Shown piece by piece: positions 22,094-56,970 of a DNA stretch of 64,000 bases (positions within the stretch are counted from its first letter, which is position 1; every line of letters starts with the position of its first letter). This stretch comes from the human T2T-CHM13v2.0 reference genome, Homo sapiens. The stretch lies in the NCBI RefSeq assembly GCF_009914755.1, contig NC_060925.1. The stretch is one strand, 5' to 3'. The position numbers and the translations under genes were made by a program. The notes under the pieces were generated by a model. The model searched no databases and was not told where the DNA came from. It was given only the letters and a program-made list of their open reading frames with translations.

Positions 22094-22210
22094 GTGAGTT
22101 GGGCTGAAACTTCAGGATCTAGAAATAAAACAAGGTTTTTCTGGGAAATAGATATATGGTACCTATGGAAAGAGCAGAAGGAAGATAGTATATGTGGTTG
22201 AGTTTTCTAG

Positions 22211-22549
<339 letters not shown>

Positions 22550-23685
22550 TAAAGAGTTTAAAAGTAAACTTTGAAAGTAATATCTAAATGTTGCAGATGT
22601 AGGACTTTTTCTTCTTTTGTATTTTGGGGCAGTGCTAGATCTGTGTTATTGTAGGGGAAATTAAAAGATGCTTTTTTAAAAAAGCAGATAGCACCAAAGT
22701 CAATGATTAGAGATTTTTTCATACATATATATATATAATTATCACATCTTATCCATAGGTGTGCTTTGAACATATATATGCCACTCTTCTCTGTCTTCTG
22801 GAATGCAGACCAAAGATGTTAAATTGATTCAGTTGAGTATATATTATACTGCAGATTCTATATGTATAAAGACAACAGTTCTCGAAAGTTACCCTTACTG
22901 AAACCAAGTATAGCACTGATGTGATGAAACAGTTTGGCTGTATCTTCTTATGTCAGTTTTCACTGAAGACCTCCTCTTGGAGCCAAAGGGAAGTTAACTG
23001 AAAGTTCTAGAGGTTGGCAATTTTCCCTTTATTCTGAGACTCCCTCAGAAAAGGCGTGCATAACAAAGTAAATGTAAACAATATCCTTCATGGTTATTAG
23101 GACAAGTAAATGAAGAATATGAGGCCATTATTCAAAACCTCTGTTCACTTCCTGTGGCTTTTTCAAAGTGTTCCAGCCTCAAGTCAGGACAAATCACCTG
23201 TACTGAGGCTCTAGCATCTTCAGCAGCAGGACCAAAAGTGGTCATCTCAGCCTGTACCCCCAGTTGTGTGTTTGAAGCAGCCATTGAATAATTAGTATGT
23301 TCCAGGTATTGTACTTTCTCTGTTCATGTACTTTTAGCACTGGATTCTCACTATACCTTATGAAGTAGTTTGCGTTATACTATAGACTAAGAAACTGAAG
23401 CTTAAAGAGAGTAAGACTTGCCTGAGGTCACACAGCTATTGAATGACCGTGGGGAGTTGAAACTAGGTCCACTGAGCTCAAATTTCCCTAATCCATGGTA
23501 CCTCCCCACATGTAACTATCATGCCACTAATATGTTATTTTCATGTGCTGAATTTGCCTTTTGTTTCATTATTAAAATTGATTAGACTCAGAACTTTTGG
23601 ATATATTCTTTTCATTATTATTGTTTGGTCAAGATGATTTATGTTGATCTGTTTGCTGAGGATGAAGAAAAAGGTAAGAATTTAG

Positions 23686-40300: not shown

Positions 40301-42394
40301 GTGGAAGCTACAGAATACTAATATGTGCAAAGGATACATTTTTAACAAAGCATACCGTCAGGTGTTGGCCTCGGATGTTATGTGTGCATAGGTTCGTGAG
40401 TCTTTGTACATGCTAGTGTTAGGGCGGATAATCCAATGAAGTCTTACCAACTCTCAGGTAGCTCCGAGTGGGGAGATGACCAAGTCATGCCACCTAAAAC
40501 ATGTCACCAAAAAGCTCCAGCAAAATTTCTTTCACGTGCCAAGTCCCCTGCATCTATCATTTACCCTGCCACCAGTGCCATCTGATGCCATGGCTCAGTT
40601 ATGTAATTCCTAGAATAGGCTCAGACATGAAGGGGTTGCACTGAAACTATGTACTGAGGGTATCTACGAACCTGGGCAGTTTGTTCTAGGCTGGAGGCGG
40701 GAGGGTGAGGGCTGCCTATGGGGTTCTGGCTGTCCTGTACAGTTAGCGTGTACTTAGAGTGTAGAGTTTACCAGAGTGTGTACCACACAACCCTGCTTTC
40801 ATGAATGACTTCAGAAAAAAAGGGTGTTCTATGGCAAATAAGATTTGGACATACTGCACACTGTTTTTTTTTCTTGTGGAGAATCACAAGGACCATGAGA
40901 ATATTTAATAAGAGGTTTTTTGCTATCAAGAGGACAGGATTTCCAGGACTTGGTGACATGCTGGATGTGGGGAGAAGGAGGCACATAGAATGGCTCACAT
41001 GAAGGCGATGAGGTGGACCCCCTGACTCACTAAAAGAGGAGAGGGGCAGGATTTGTGGGGGAAGATGAGGAGTTCGGTTCTGACCTGGTACTTTGAGGTA
41101 CTCATGATTTAGGGCTTGGGAGAAGGGTCTGGACTCGGGTGGGTGACACTTAAATCACAATGAAAGCTGTGGAACCAAAAAGAACAGAACAGATAAAAAT
41201 TGGGATGAGAACAGCCCTCAGAAGAACAGTAATGTTCAAAAGGCAGAAAGTGAAGGAAGAGAGGCAGGGGGAAAACTAGCAGAGAGTAGCGTCACAGAAT
41301 TCAAGGAGAAAAGGGTCTCAAAAAAAATTAGGGATGTTATTTGCAGGGCCTTCCTCATAGGAAGTCACAAGATAATTTCAGCCAAGAGGCATTAGAAATG
41401 TAAATACATAGAAAATACAGTCTCTATCTCTTTCCTTCATGCTACTGAGTTTGCTATCAGAGCACTGCATGTGTATAAAAATTTGCAAATTTGGGGAATG
41501 CTTACAAGTGCAAATAATTTATAATATTCCAGTCTAATTATTGTTTATTAATATGATTATATCATGTACTATACTTAAGTGCCTCAACTGATATGAAGCA
41601 AACATACCTGTTTAACCAGATTCCTAGTTGCCATTCATTTATTTCCATTTGCTAACCCACTTCAATTGATTTTCCAATAATTGATAAAGACACTTGAATG
41701 GCCTGAAATGCTTTTTTAAATGAGATGAGTAATCATTTAAAAATGAATGTCTAGTGACAATATTAAATATTTTGAAAAGCCATCTAAACACTTGAAAGAC
41801 ACTATGCTATTCTTTTCTAGTCATCTAAGATATTGTAACAAAGCTTAAATCTCACATTGACCTAAAAATTACTGTTTTATAATCTTCTTAACATATCTCC
41901 TGTACACGGAACTCTTCAATATTCTAGTGAGTGACATGCTGTCAGTGTCTTTAGCAGTATTCTTTCTTCCCCAGTAATTTTGTATTACGTTATTTTAGAG
42001 CTTTACATGGTAGTATAATCACATTTTATTGTCTTTTAGTAATTCTGGCAAAGTGGTTTTAGAAGCACAATGAAATATGTGTACTTTCAAAGAAGGAAAG
42101 TAAAAACATTCTCTTCAAACTCGTTTAAAGCTTTTAAGTCAGACTAGAACATTGAGTCCCAAAAGGGTAAAGTTATGATCTAAAATAAGAACTTATTTTT
42201 GCTTCTTTTCTTCAATTTGGAAGTTGTAGTTGTTAGTCATTAAGCGTCCTGGATCCTAGGGTAAAGCTGCTTAGTGTCAGCCTCTGACTTGAACACTTAC
42301 AAGCCTAGATCATTCATTTTTTATGTGCCTTTCCAAAAAATGGAGTTACAGTGTTTACACTTCATAGGATAAAAACAATAAAAATGAAATCATC

Positions 42395-42862
<468 letters not shown>

Positions 42863-50016: not shown

Positions 50017-52250
50017 AGTCTTCCAGAATCACATTGAACTATGGGAAAGAGGGGATTTCCCAGTGGAAAAATCTAGGGGCAAATCCCAGAGGAAGGGACC
50101 CATTTAGAGCAACAGATATCCACCTTCACCTCCATCTGAAAAAAATCTTCCCCCAAACCATCTATGTTTCTCGTTTAAACTACCTCTCTTACACCAAATT
50201 TTCTGAAAGAGTGGTTGGCCTTAGCTGTCTCAACCACTGTAGTCATTCATTCAAGTGATGATAATTATGGAGCTCCTTCTATGTGCTAAGCATTATTTTA
50301 GGTCATGGGATTTGGCAGTCGTAAACTGACATGTTCTCATGCAGCTTTTATTCTGGTGGGAGAGACACACAATAAGCAGATTTTCAGTTGGTAATAAAAT
50401 GAAAAAATGATAAGTATAATTTTTTAATCTATATGAAACAGGCAAAAAGGAAAGGAAGTTCTGAATTAATGTGCAATTTTAAATAGTGGCCAAGGAAGGC
50501 TCCATTAAGAAGGTCTCATTTGAGCCAAATAACTCAAGGAGATGAGGTAGTAGCCATGCAGAGCGATATCTGGGCAAAGAGCATTCTAAGCAAAAGGAAT
50601 ATTAAATGGGAGGAAAAAACTGAAGAGAAAAATACACCTGCTGCACTTGGAGAAATAATTTGTTTGCAAGCTGATGGTAAAAATCCAGCAGAAAGAGGTG
50701 TATGATAGTGCTGGAGGAAGTGAGAATTGCTGGTTTCCTTGAGTGAGTGAGAGCAAATCGAATCTAGGGCACAAGTGGAGAGATCACCCTTAGACTTAGA
50801 CTGTGAACAGTATAATTATATTAACAGGAGAGACGGAGGTTTCATGGGCCAAATACAAGAATTTGGGTGGAGTGATGGTAGAAAATTGTAGATCTATTTG
50901 ATTGTTTCTATTTTCTCAATAAAGAAAGAAACAAAGCCATTCACAGAAATTAAGAATGTTGGAGAAGGTGTCAGAAATAAATGTCAAAATAAAAATATGA
51001 AATAGTCATTTAGGAGAATGGGAGAATAAATGGATTAGACAAACAATAGTGGGAATGTCAGGCAGAAGTATAATGGTCCATTTGAAATTATTTGTTACTA
51101 AAGTAAGGCTAGTCATTGTGGCTATGTGTCTTTTCCAGCCACATTCAGTTTCACAGGTATGACAGCAAAATAATGGAGAATTGATTCTAACCAGTAATGT
51201 TGTTTTGTCTAATGGCTATAATAACCCAAGAGAAGGGTGAGGGAGCTAACAGTGGGTGCAAGATGGTGATTATAAAGACAGAGTATGGAATTTAACCTGG
51301 TAGTGATGAAAGTGAAGACACAAAGGAGGTGAGAAGCTGAGAGAGATAGCGGTAGGATCAATGGGCTGCAGGCACTGAGACAGACAAAGATTGCTGGATT
51401 CAGTTTAACGTTACTAGGGTAAAAGAAAAGAGTTGGATTGGTGGTTAGAGAGTGGGATCATTGAAATCACTGAGAGGTTGAAAGTGACAAGTCTCCGAGC
51501 ATGCACATGAGCATTAGAGTCAGAGGAGAGTGGAGGACAAGACCACAGGCAGAGAAGAGGTCAAGGCACTGGAAGGCCAGGGATTTGAAAATACTATTGC
51601 TGTGAATGTTGAAATCACCAGGAACTGTGGCAGAAGTAACAGTGGAGAAGGTGGCCATGAGCCAGGAGCTCAAACTTTCAAGGAATGAGGGAGAAAGTAG
51701 ATACTAGGAGATGGATACCAGCAGAAGTGGTAAGGAGTGGCACCTTCTGATAGCATGTGATGTAAAACTGGGGAAATGAGCCTTCTCCTCTTCTCTTTTC
51801 CTAAGCCTACTACAATCTGGCTGCTACTCCCATTACTCTGTTGAGAATAACTTGAAATGATGATAGCAAATCCTTAAAAGAATGTCACTGGATGTACTAA
51901 AAACTGTGATAAGTGATATGATCAAAGTAGACATTTCTTCCACTAGAATTTTGGGAGGAAGCCTAATGGAAACCAATGCGCACAGAAAGACAAATGCTGT
52001 ATGTTATTAGTCATATGTGGACTCTAAAAAACTCATCTCATAGAAGTAGAGGGTAGAATACTGGTTACCAGAGGCTGGGGAAGGGAGAGACAATGGGAGA
52101 TGGAGAGAGATTGGTTAAAGGGCACAGGATCACAGATAGATAGGAGGAATACATTCATCCTTGAATACTTAACCCTCTGCCCTAAATCTGTCAGTCCTAC
52201 ATCCATACTTCTTATTTCAGTAAGTAGCACCACCATTCATTTCTAATCCT

Positions 52251-52803
52251 GGGGCTAACTCTTTTTTTTTTTTCTTTTCTGAATCATGTCTCCTTTTAAT
52301 GGTTAAGGAAAACAAGTTTAACATAAAATTAGCAACAACAACAACAACAACAACAAAATCAAGGTTTAAAGTCAAAATTATTTTAAGAGAAAAACCCAGG
52401 CAAAATAGCCTACCTACAGACAGGCAGTACATGTCAGAAGGACAGGCCACCCCCAATAAAAAAGATAAAATATTATTTTTTCTACCTTTTTTAAACTTAA
52501 TTATTTAATTATTTCTTTCTTTTTTCTTTTTTTTGTTTCTTTTTTTTATTATACTTTAAGTTTTAGGGTACATGTGCACAACGTGCAGGTTTGTTACATA
52601 TGTATACATGTGCGACGTTGGTGTGCTGCACCCATTAACTCGTCCTTTACATTAGGTATATCTCCTAATGCTATCCCTCCCCCCTCCCCCCACCCCACAA
52701 CAGGCCCCGGTGTGTGATGTTCCTCTTCCTGTGTCCATGTGTTCTCATTGTGGAAGCTGGAAACCATCATTCTCAGCAAACTACCGCAAGGGGGCTAACT
52801 CTT
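52251..52803 (-). mobile_element. young L1PA (L1PA2-4-like) insertion with 5' inversion and 3' transduction, TSD GGGGCTAACTCTT
   Basis: TSD at 52251-52263 and 52791-52803; poly-T 52262-52278; unique ~230 nt; second T-rich tail ~52510-52548; antisense L1 3'UTR to 52750; sense L1 piece ~52752-52790. Confidence 0.9.
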
Positions 52804-53239
52804 GATTGCTTTCTTCTCACCACCAACCTTAAGAAAGGAAGTAACCAAAATCCAATACATGAGCAACTGTTCATTCCATCTCCAATATCTTTGTTAATTG
52901 TCCACTTTATCCACCCAGTCAGGGCCGCCATCAAACCTCACTTGGATGTCGGCAAAAGCTCCCCTGACTGGTCTTCGCAGTCCATTATTGCCCTATTCTA
53001 ATCTACCTTCCATACTATACACAGATTTACATTTTTTAAATGTGTATCTAATTGTCCCTCCCTTTTAAAAAATCTTACAATGGCATGACGTCTCAATTCA
53101 GGGTAAGGAAATTGTTTCTTCACATTCCCTGTACACCGTACACATCGCCTGCAATTGCCCTTCAACACGGAGAGCAGGCATTTCATTAGCTGACCTTCCC
53201 ACACACATTCTTGCAAAGAGGAAAAGTTAAGCAGGGTGT

Positions 53240-54050
53240 TTGGAGGCGAGCTGCCATCATCCACCGCCTTTGTCTGGAAGCGCAGGGCCTCACACGCGGG
53301 ATCCATCGGAAGCCCGAGCATTGTCAATCTCTGCTGCTGCACCTGGGTCAGCAAGGTGGGCTCTGCCAGCGAAACTCGTTAGAAACAATGCAAATGGGGA
53401 GTAAACATGACCTCGCCCATGAAGGGGAAGCTGTGGTCAAAAGCATTTTGTCCCGGAACCCCGCAGCCCTCCCCACACTCTGGGCGCGGAGCACAATGAT
53501 TGGTCACTCCTATTTTCGCTGAGCTTTTCCTCTTATTTCAGTTTTCTTCGAGATCAAATCTGGTTTGTAGATGTGCTTGGGGAGAATGGGGGCCTCTTCT
53601 CCAAGAAGCCCGGAGCCTGTCGGGCCGCCGGCGCCCGGTCTCCCCTTCTGCTGCGGAGGATCCCTGCTGGCGGTTGTGGTGCTGCTTGCGCTGCCGGTGG
53701 CCTGGGGTGAGAGGCGGGCGGGCGTGGGGAGGCGCCCGGGCGGACGAGGAACCCGGGGCCCCGCAGAGAACTCGCGTGCAGCGCTGAGCTGCGCTGCTCT
53801 GCGCGCCCGGGTCCGAAGGCAGCGCGATGGGTGGGCTGAGCGCGCGACCCGGCAGGGCGGCGGGTGTAGGATCCTTCTGCGCACTGGAGACCCTCGGTGC
53901 TTCTGGGTAAGCGTGGAGTTCCCAGGTGCAGGGGCTTAAGTCGTGACGAGCGCAGTGGAAGGCGCAGATGCTGAGCGGGTGCCGCACGAAATTCCTTGCC
54001 TTTGTGTATTCACAGCCTCGGCTGGCTATAGCCAAGACGTGGCGTTGATC
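53240..54050. promoter_or_regulatory. CR1: CR1 CpG island and TATA-less promoter (RUNX motif TGTGGT 53432-53437, ETS motif CCGGAA 53453-53458, inverted CCAAT 53499-53503)
   Basis: GC/CpG-rich segment and motifs read directly upstream of the CR1 ATG; no TATA box seen. Confidence 0.8.
53586..53706 (+). CDS. CR1: CR1 exon 1 coding part (signal peptide [41 protein letters not shown])
   Basis: Recognised CR1 leader; agaATGg Kozak; donor G|GTGAGA; in-frame upstream ATG at 53571. Confidence 0.96.
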
Positions 54051-55689
54051 CTAGTGAAAGGGAACTTGGGGATCCGACAAACCTGAGTTCTGGTCCTAGA
54101 AACTTAACTGTGAGGCAACTTAGCACACCTGAGTCTGTTTGCTCTTCTGTAAAATGGGGACACTGGTATCTCTGCATCGTGGAGTTGCTGCCTCAGTGGC
54201 ATTAAGCCTGTCGAGTATCTAACACAGGGCTATGTGTCCCCGAGTCCATTTCTATCCCCCAACCGTTACCTCTGTACTTAGCTCCCAATGGTGTTTAGAC
54301 AAGCAGTCCTAGGGATGCAGGTGTTACCTGACAACTGCCCCGCATGGAACTGTCCTCGCCCCCCACACCAAGCCACCACGGCCATCATCACCATGCACTT
54401 AATTGACAGCATACTTTAAGACAGATGCATGCCAGGCACTTGCGGATTAGAAGAGCAAGGGAAGCCCCAGAACATGCAATGTAACCGTTGCAGGTAGAAG
54501 GGACAGTAGATATGTTTACAGTTCGCATTTTAGTGATGTGTTTAGTACAAAATAACGCCTATTATAATTATTATGGAAATTTTGAGGCCACATCTCTTCC
54601 TTTTTCTTAACTTCAAATAGGTAAACATCTTCAGTTAGAACCCTTCTATTATTATTTTTCGGCTCCCCAGAAGTCTTCTTGGTTGCCTAGACTCACTGGC
54701 AACATCTCATTTGAAGTGACAGTCTTGGTTGTTTTTGTCCAGCCTATTCCTGACAACTCCGGGTTCGCCCTTCTCTGCCACTAGACATTTTACATTCATT
54801 ATTTGAGTGTTCCTTCTTCTCTAAAAGAGTAAATAAAATAAAATAAAGTAGAACCAAGTCCCGCAAGAGTTGTTATTAATATTTGATCTCCTTAGGCACC
54901 AGAAAGTAACCTGTCAGGTGCAGAGATGTGATAAAACGTACAATCTTATTTTTAGGAGAGAAGCATGCCCAGTAAGTTAAGCAATCTGTTGTCAACGCTT
55001 AGGAATTTGTGTCATCTTTGGGAGTACTGGCCCTCTTCTTACTAGAATGTTGTTTTACTTAGCCTATGTTGATTAAGTTACTGTTATAAACAATCCCAGA
55101 CACTATTAATTGCAAAAAAAAAATTTACTGAGGTTATCACAATAACTTCCAAATGTGAAACAGCCTAAACTAAACTACCTAGAAATTTTGTTGCTGACAT
55201 AATTTAAATTTTAAAATGCTGATGGATGCTTCCAGTGTGCATGGTCCTTTGGAATTTTAAAGAAGTATAAGAGCTCTGCACCCAAAGTGTATGCATATAG
55301 AAGTAGGTGGTGGAGTTTTATGAAATCTACTTATTAGGAAGCCAGCGTTCTGCTTTTTCCAGCCTCTGCTACTTACCAGCTGGTGTCTTGGACCCAGTAA
55401 GTTAAGTCACATCACTGACCTTCAGTGTCCACATGTATAAAATGAGCATAACTGACATCCTGATCTCTGAGAGAGACGTTTTGAAAATCAGATGGTGTAA
55501 TGCATGTGACAGTGTTTTGTAATCTGAAAACCCCCATGCATGTCTGAAAAACCATGACTAAGAAGTCGTGCAAGACTGCAGGATCACCGAAAAGCGAGAA
55601 ATCTCAACTCCTATGATCAGGAAAGGATGAGTGAAAGGTATATGGCTTTACTAGCACTTAAAGAGTGAATCTAGAAACAGATTGCATAC

Positions 55690-56970
<1,281 letters not shown>

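What the first reader, a model, noticed from the sequence alone, without database searches (positions are those of the whole stretch)
52251..52803. L1 insertion with both twin-priming inversion and 3' transduction just upstream of CR1
Seen: a 13-bp TSD (GGGGCTAACTCTT) encloses, read on the - strand, an inverted ~40-nt L1 piece (GG microhomology at the TSD), the L1PA 3'UTR, an A-rich tail, ~230 nt of non-L1 sequence containing a (TTG)n run, an ATTAAA signal (tttaat at 52295-52300) and a second poly(A) about 16 nt later. Established: this is the signature of L1 read-through 3' transduction plus twin priming. Inference: DNA from another locus was delivered ~0.8 kb upstream of the CR1 ATG; it tags the source L1 and could influence the promoter.
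Basis: partly seen in the sequence, partly recalled or inferred. Interest (0 to 1): 0.7.

Follow-up and report, generated by a model that had tools for sequence, protein, structure and literature searches.

The report
Parentless L1 transduction upstream of CR1
A short jumping-gene (L1) insertion 0.7 kb in front of the human CR1 gene carries about 210 bases that match an intron of another gene on chromosome 11, where the parent L1 that likely made the copy is absent; it is a clean example of a known process, and any effect on CR1 is untested.

Summary
The anatomy is real. A 13-bp target-site duplication (52251-52263, 52791-52803) encloses a 39-nt inverted L1 piece, 202 nt of L1 3' end, a 61-nt A-rich tail, a 213-nt extra segment with ATTAAA, and a second poly(A). 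The paralogous CR1L site holds one copy of the 13-mer. The extra segment has one other close match, chr11:27,244,208-27,244,434, with 6 substitutions in 213 nt. It lies in a sense-strand intron of the gamma-butyrobetaine dioxygenase gene (BBOX1). The copy starts 12 nt after a T/A9 endonuclease-type motif and ends at the first downstream poly(A) signal. The best reading is a 'parentless' 3' transduction whose source L1 was lost, a class described in dogs and primates. Corrections: the TSD overlap is 1 nt, not GG, and the 'non-L1' segment is a decayed ancient L1-type repeat in antisense. No evidence for a promoter effect was found. New member of a known kind.

The parts
52791..52803 (-). Target-site duplication, copy at the element's 5' end (13 bp); the plus strand continues TCTT/GA, an L1 endonuclease-type nick site
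   Evidence: single copy at the CR1L empty site C1:206,915,398
52753..52791 (+). Inverted L1 piece, 39 nt (L1 sense reads on the plus strand); shares 1 nt (52791) with the TSD
   Evidence: 97% to other L1 copies over query 1-38, in opposite orientation to the rest; junction comparison with 29 copies
52752..52752 (.). Inversion junction: one base matching neither arm (untemplated, or a later substitution at a 1-nt overlap); 45-46 nt of L1 are missing between the arms
52550..52751 (-). Non-inverted L1 3' end, 202 nt, 5'-truncated, no promoter; L1PA4/L1PA5-like (subfamily label recalled, no consensus library tested)
   Evidence: 94.7-97.6% to 29 genomic copies; 4 of 202 positions differ from their column majority
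52489..52549 (-). First A-rich tail (61 nt, decayed poly(A) of the source L1); no match at chr11
52276..52488 (-). Transduced segment, 213 nt, copy of chr11:27,244,208-27,244,434 (+), a BBOX1 intron; itself part of an ancient L1-ORF1-type repeat in antisense; contains the (TTG)n run, also present at the source
   Evidence: E 2.2e-86; 6/213 substitutions, indels of 8 and 6 nt; profile of 18 old-repeat copies hits it at E 9.8e-12; gene context
52295..52300 (-). ATTAAA polyadenylation signal, 16 nt before the second tail; present at the source, where it is the only A(A/T)TAAA in the ~990 nt scanned from the junction onward and is followed by a T-rich stretch
52264..52278 (-). Second poly(A) tail (15 nt); absent from chr11 beyond 3 templated A
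52251..52263 (-). Target-site duplication, copy at the element's 3' end (13 bp)

Best explanation
The 540-bp insert upstream of CR1 is an L1 insertion with a 13-bp target-site duplication, a short inversion and a 213-nt copy of a chromosome 11 intron, likely made in one twin-priming event from the read-through RNA of a source L1 that likely sat at that chromosome 11 site and has since been lost from the human lineage. Shown: the TSD, the empty CR1L paralog, the inversion with a 45-46 nt internal deletion, the single chr11 source, its poly(A) signal, and the absence of an L1PA upstream of it. Inferred steps: (1) a full-length L1PA4/5-age element inserted at the T/A9 motif (C11:27,244,196) in a BBOX1 intron, in the gene's sense direction; (2) transcription ran through its weak signal and was cleaved 16 nt after the first downstream ATTAAA; (3) ORF2p nicked TCTT/GA upstream of CR1 and copied about 490 nt from the poly(A), while the second nick primed inside the L1 RNA and copied 39 nt in the other orientation; (4) the daughter became fixed while the parent never did (lineage sorting or drift, possibly helped by selection against a sense-oriented intronic L1). 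The rough age is 12 million years (range 4-25), from 2.8% divergence and a recalled rate of about 1.2e-9 per site per year. The insert is most likely neutral for CR1.
For: Exact TSD and clean empty site at CR1L. Inversion geometry as the twin-priming model predicts: the 3'-most end of the inverted piece abuts the TSD, with a deletion at the junction (model in bioRxiv 10.1101/2024.08.27.596794, passages). One close source (2 of 2 candidates; two exact-pattern scans). The homology starts 12 nt after a T/A9 motif, and T+A8 runs occur only twice on the plus strand in 29.2 kb. It ends at the first ATTAAA. The chr11 site is collinear with relatives of the ancient repeat on both sides, with no flanking deletion, as an empty site should be. 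Source sites without an L1 are common: 17 of 18 in PMC7980453, 24 of 27 in PMC13141329 (passages), and nearly all non-human primate cases in PMC4862182 (section 14). [quoted passage not shown]
Against: The source L1 itself is not observed; no ape genome could be searched. The CR1 copy does not reproduce the three bases between the A9 run and the start of homology, so a later change in one copy must be assumed. The chr11 site has about 30 extra A-rich bases relative to 18 relatives (80 nt between anchors against a median of 49.5, range 9-63), which could also be a scar. The site lies in a sense-strand intron, so an RNA with this sequence and poly(A) signal could arise without any L1. The published parentless cases are young and polymorphic, whereas this one is old. 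Divergence from the source (6/213) is not significantly below CR1-CR1L divergence (47/901; Fisher p 0.16), so dating alone does not order the events.
Confidence: 0.78

Rival explanations
1. RNA chimera with no parent L1 at chr11: reverse transcription began on an intronically polyadenylated BBOX1 RNA, reached the A9 run, and switched template onto the poly(A) tail of an unrelated L1 RNA, which was also twin-primed.
For: The source is in a BBOX1 intron on the sense strand and has its own ATTAAA with a T-rich downstream stretch. The break falls beside an A run that could guide a switch. No L1 lies upstream and no siblings were found.
Against: It needs two RNAs in one particle plus twin priming on the second. 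The same A run is equally a canonical endonuclease target. Parentless transductions are common and are explained by unfixed sources. Use of this poly(A) site by BBOX1 was not tested.
Confidence: 0.09
2. The source L1 was fixed and was later removed in the human lineage by recombination between its target-site duplications or by gene conversion, possibly leaving part of the A-rich 30-nt excess as a scar.
For: About 30 extra A-rich bases lie exactly at the start of the copied segment, including a 5-nt direct repeat around the A run.
Against: About 17 of the extra bases are already in the CR1 copy, so they predate the event. The remaining bases do not match the CR1 tail next to the junction. Precise deletion is described as the less likely route compared with lineage sorting for SVA (PMC6139936, passage).
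Confidence: 0.08
3. The 2.7-kb L1 fragment that begins about 740 bp downstream of the source on the same strand (C11:27,245,175-27,247,862) is a rearranged remnant or local daughter of the missing source.
For: It is close, on the same strand and of broadly similar age. PMC4862182 lists truncated L1s near source loci as either unrelated or remnants.
Against: It lies 3' of the segment, not 5', and has no 3' UTR or tail. It is only 91-94% identical to its best-scoring relatives. The 6 relatives whose 3' ends were recovered (of 8 fetched) all carry G at a site where the CR1 element has A, pointing to an older lineage. Its short end duplication suggests an independent, internally primed insertion.
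Confidence: 0.03
4. Functional add-on, not exclusive of the above: the insert affects CR1 by supplying poly(A) signals that end upstream antisense transcripts, or by pushing upstream elements 540 bp away.
For: All 3 minus-strand A(A/T)TAAA hexamers within 2.5 kb upstream of the CR1 TSS lie in the insert; CR1L has 2 others in 2,078 bp. That such signals enforce promoter directionality is recalled knowledge.
Against: There is no L1 promoter in the insert and no RefSeq element over it. A -74/+77 fragment serves as the CR1 promoter (PMC10435571). A-rich tails produce such hexamers by default.
Confidence: 0.1

Closest known systems
L1 partnered 3' transduction (Moran 1999, Goodier 2000, Pickeral 2000, Szak 2003; cited through reference lists, texts not held)
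   Same: L1 3' end, first A tail, flanking DNA in the same orientation, own poly(A) signal 16 nt before a second tail, all inside one TSD
   Different: No L1 remains at the source; the transduced DNA is a decayed ancient L1-type repeat rather than unique DNA
'Parentless' 3' transductions (dog: PMC7980453, PMC13141329; chimpanzee, orangutan, macaque: PMC4862182)
   Same: The source locus is found but is not adjacent to a donor L1; a truncated L1 lies nearby, as in class 2 of PMC4862182
   Different: Those are polymorphic, recent insertions whose parent may still segregate. This one has 2.8% divergence, is probably fixed (not tested), and its parent is probably extinct in humans
Twin-priming 5' inversion (Ostertag and Kazazian 2001, recalled; model as given in bioRxiv 10.1101/2024.08.27.596794)
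   Same: Inverted arm next to the 5' TSD, internal deletion at the junction, inverted arm shorter than the forward arm
   Different: Very short arms (39 nt and about 490 nt); only 1 nt of overlap at the TSD and one unexplained base at the junction

Membership tests
L1 TPRT insertion | Target-site duplication with a single copy at an empty homologous site | tested here: met
   (CR1L)
L1 TPRT insertion | Endonuclease-type nick motif and 3' poly(A) | tested here: met
   TCTT/GA at the empty site; 15-nt tail; motif consensus recalled
L1 3' transduction | Extra segment between two A tails maps to another locus in the same orientation | tested here: met
   C11:27,244,208-27,244,434, E 2.2e-86; 6/213 substitutions
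L1 3' transduction | Poly(A) signal 10-40 nt before the new tail, tail not templated | tested here: met
   ATTAAA 16 nt upstream; the source continues without a tail; range from PMC9311842 passage
L1 3' transduction with identifiable donor | Full-length L1 immediately upstream of the source | tested here: not met
   no L1PA 3' end in 18.5 kb upstream; not filed as having an identified donor
Parentless 3' transduction | Source site is an intact empty site with an endonuclease motif at the start of the segment | tested here: met
   collinear old repeat on both sides; T/A9 12 nt before the start; caveat: 30-nt A-rich excess
Parentless 3' transduction | Parent L1 demonstrable in another haplotype or species, or through sibling transductions | not testable with these tools
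   only one human assembly is held; no siblings in it
Twin-priming inversion | Inverted arm abuts the 5' TSD at its L1-3'-most end; deletion or duplication at the junction | tested here: met
   45-46 nt deletion
Twin-priming inversion | Microcomplementarity at the internal priming site and at the junction | tested here: inconclusive
   1 nt at the TSD, 0-1 nt at the junction; not above chance
L1PA4/L1PA5 subfamily | Best match to the subfamily consensus at diagnostic sites | not testable with these tools
   no repeat library held; label recalled; 2.0% from the majority of 29 similarity-selected copies

The most novel reading that the evidence does not exclude
No L1 ever sat at the chr11 site: the insert is a chimera in which L1 reverse transcriptase started on an intronically polyadenylated BBOX1 RNA, jumped at an A run onto an L1 RNA and twin-primed it, so some 'parentless transductions' are host-RNA captures that never had a parent.
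Probability: 0.09. Interest if true: 0.6.

Novelty: new member of a known kind. Interest (0 to 1): 0.27.

Why it matters
As best read, the insert is a fossil record of an active L1 that once sat in a BBOX1 intron and left no other trace that I could find in this genome. It gives a precise, testable coordinate for a lost source element in ape genomes. It is also a clean marker that distinguishes CR1 from CR1L and can date their divergence. The mechanisms are textbook and missing parents are well described, so a specialist would find it neat rather than surprising. It would matter more if the chimera reading held, or if deleting the insert changed CR1 expression, since CR1 levels are studied in malaria and other disease (search listing).

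Tried and rejected
L1 upstream of the source: none (only weak 80-85% hits to an older L1 3' end about 10 kb downstream). Siblings: none. The third hit (C23:109,302,786, 3 mismatches) was not followed. Sister L1 copies sharing the insert's rarer variants: no copy among 29 shared both rare positions. GG microhomology: rejected. Segment as unique DNA: rejected; the Pfam support is 1 of 21 peptides, picked by hand from 64 stop-free stretches, and comes from a relative (L020), about 0.85-1 kb along the repeat from the segment; the profile hit has a large composition-bias term (23 against a score of 32.5 bits). Downstream L1 fragment as donor: disfavoured. Rfam over 51500-56000: only an SRP-like (Alu) piece outside the insert. 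The bacterial promoter and terminator scan is not applicable to a human locus and was not used. Literature: none of the listings showed a paper on this insertion, and BBOX1 had 0 occurrences in the 20 listed (of 32) papers. Szak 2003, Pickeral 2000 and the id tried for Hoyt 2022 were not held; their tables or supplements, and McLure 2005 on CR1/CR1L indels (recalled, not read), may list it.

Full report
Observation. The region 52251-52803 reads on the minus strand as TSD, inverted L1 (39 nt), one junction base, L1 3' end (202 nt), A-rich tail (61 nt), extra segment (213 nt), poly(A) (15 nt), TSD. The 13-mer occurs twice in the window and cannot be extended. Such pairs are not rare alone (36 pairs at 12 places), so I tested the paralog. 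A search with the left flank found C1:206,915,179, upstream of a second CR1-like first exon (CR1L; name from the finding and recall). There the two flanks join across a single copy of the 13-mer, followed by GA, giving the nick site TCTT/GA. The insert is therefore a true 540-bp addition, 672 bp upstream of the RefSeq TSS and 783 bp upstream of the ATG. CR1 and CR1L flanks differ at 32/650 and 15/251 positions.

Inversion. Against the 29 best-matching genomic L1 copies fetched (of 40 candidates scored among 1,687), the piece at 52753-52791 is L1 sequence in the opposite orientation. Its L1-3'-most end touches the TSD, and 45-46 nt are missing between the arms. This is the geometry of twin priming, in which internal deletions are frequent (bioRxiv 10.1101/2024.08.27.596794, passages). 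The overlap with the TSD is 1 nt, not 2: there are 5 G at the filled site, 4 at the empty site, and two in 22 of 24 informative copies. One base at the junction fits neither arm. The forward L1 part differs from the column majority at 4 of 202 positions (the copies were chosen by similarity, so this is biased low). I call it L1PA4/L1PA5-like from recalled diagnostics only. PMC7449397 places L1PA7-L1PA3 at 30-10 MYA and the L1PA5 peak near 25 MYA (passages).

Source. The extra segment has one other close match, C11:27,244,208-27,244,434, plus strand (2 of 2 candidates). It shows 6 substitutions in 213 aligned nt (2.8%, 95% interval 1.0-6.0) and indels of 8 and 6 nt. A longer query (23 of 23 candidates scored) and two pattern scans found no sibling. 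An exon 10 kb upstream encodes residues 111-178 of gamma-butyrobetaine dioxygenase (E 8e-43), and further TauD-domain exons lie 16 and 23 kb downstream on the same strand. The source is thus in a BBOX1 intron (symbol recalled), in sense. The ATTAAA is present at the source, is the only such hexamer in the ~990 nt scanned from the junction onward, and is followed by a T-rich stretch with no genomic tail.

The missing parent. There is none in 18.5 kb. Instead the homology begins 12 nt after T/AAAAAAAAA, a motif found twice on that strand in 29.2 kb. The whole chr11 region is a decayed interspersed repeat. Local alignments of 5 of 10 relatives run well through the junction without a large gap, and a profile of 18 copies covers both sides (E 1.3e-29) and the CR1 segment itself (E 9.8e-12, with substantial composition bias). 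One relative encodes an L1 ORF1 domain on the opposite strand (PF17490, E 1.2e-5, above cut-off; 1 of 21 peptides; also tblastn E 1.6e-4). So the 'non-L1' DNA is ancient L1-type sequence in antisense, and the site has lost no flanking DNA. It does carry about 30 extra A-rich bases relative to relatives (80 nt against a median of 49.5, range 9-63, n = 18). About 17 of these are in the CR1 copy and so predate the event. I read this as an old A-rich tract that served as the target, but a scar is not excluded.

Mechanism. Most likely (0.78) a full-length L1 inserted at the A tract, read through to the first poly(A) signal, seeded the CR1 insertion by twin priming, and was then lost without being fixed. 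Missing parents are common: 17 of 18 and 24 of 27 canine transductions (PMC7980453, PMC13141329; passages), and nearly all non-human primate cases in PMC4862182 (section 14 read whole). Sense-oriented intragenic full-length L1s are the minority (PMC3985663, passage), which makes selection against this parent plausible but not shown. With a recalled rate near 1.2e-9 per site per year, the divergence suggests about 12 million years (4-25), so macaque should be empty and gibbon is uncertain. The rivals are an RNA chimera with an intronically polyadenylated BBOX1 transcript (0.09), later deletion of a fixed parent (0.08), and a link to the L1 fragment about 740 bp downstream (0.03). That fragment lacks both ends, is 91-94% identical to its best relatives, and 6 of 6 recovered relatives (8 fetched) carry a different 3' variant than the CR1 element. 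Against the best reading: the parent is unseen, three bases next to the A run are not in the copy, and the divergence from the source is not significantly below the CR1-CR1L divergence (p 0.16).

Function. The insert has no L1 promoter, is antisense to CR1, and overlaps no RefSeq element in the supplied table. PMC10435571 uses -74/+77 as the CR1 promoter (passages). PMC12083581 reports promoter-region hypermethylation without naming this element in the passages seen, and PMC9831336 showed no mention of it in the 12 of 22 passages seen. One lead remains: all 3 antisense-strand poly(A) hexamers within 2.5 kb upstream of the TSS lie in the insert, so it could end upstream antisense transcripts (about 0.1).

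Novelty. Ten literature searches (listings only unless cited above) showed no description of this locus. However, Szak 2003, Pickeral 2000 and Hoyt 2022 were not obtainable and no supplements were read, so it may already sit in a table. PMC6139936, PMC13192797 and PMC9311842 were seen as passages. Interest 0.27.

Noticed in passing
L015:176-2863 (C11:27,245,175-27,247,862, +): A 2.7-kb L1 fragment lacking both ends, with no 3' UTR or tail. It stops at an A-rich ORF2 stretch and has a 5-nt duplication at its ends, which looks like an internally primed insertion in the same BBOX1 intron.
   Followed up: partly
L002:1487-1517 (about C11:27,244,194-27,244,224): About 30 extra A-rich bases relative to 18 relatives of the ancient repeat, exactly where the transduced segment starts; origin unexplained.
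   Followed up: partly
L043 (C10:89.85 Mb) and L045 (C2:123.98 Mb): Two other L1 copies (2 of 29) carry short inversions of the same L1 stretch with different junctions; independent twin-priming events, enriched by the query.
   Followed up: no
window 52212-52239: 28 bp present at CR1 and absent at CR1L, between short direct repeats, about 12 bp left of the TSD.
   Followed up: no
window 55002-55124 (CR1 intron 1): About 123 bp present in CR1 and absent in CR1L, ending in an A10 run. It has no other match in the genome (1 of 1 candidate), so a deletion in CR1L is as likely as an insertion.
   Followed up: partly
window 54968-54981 and 55393-55406: Exact 14-bp direct repeat 425 bp apart in CR1 intron 1, with no obvious element between.
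   Followed up: no
window 42380-42663 and 22207-22559: Two other insertions with 15-bp TSDs within CR2 introns: a short L1 3' end and an Alu-like element.
   Followed up: no
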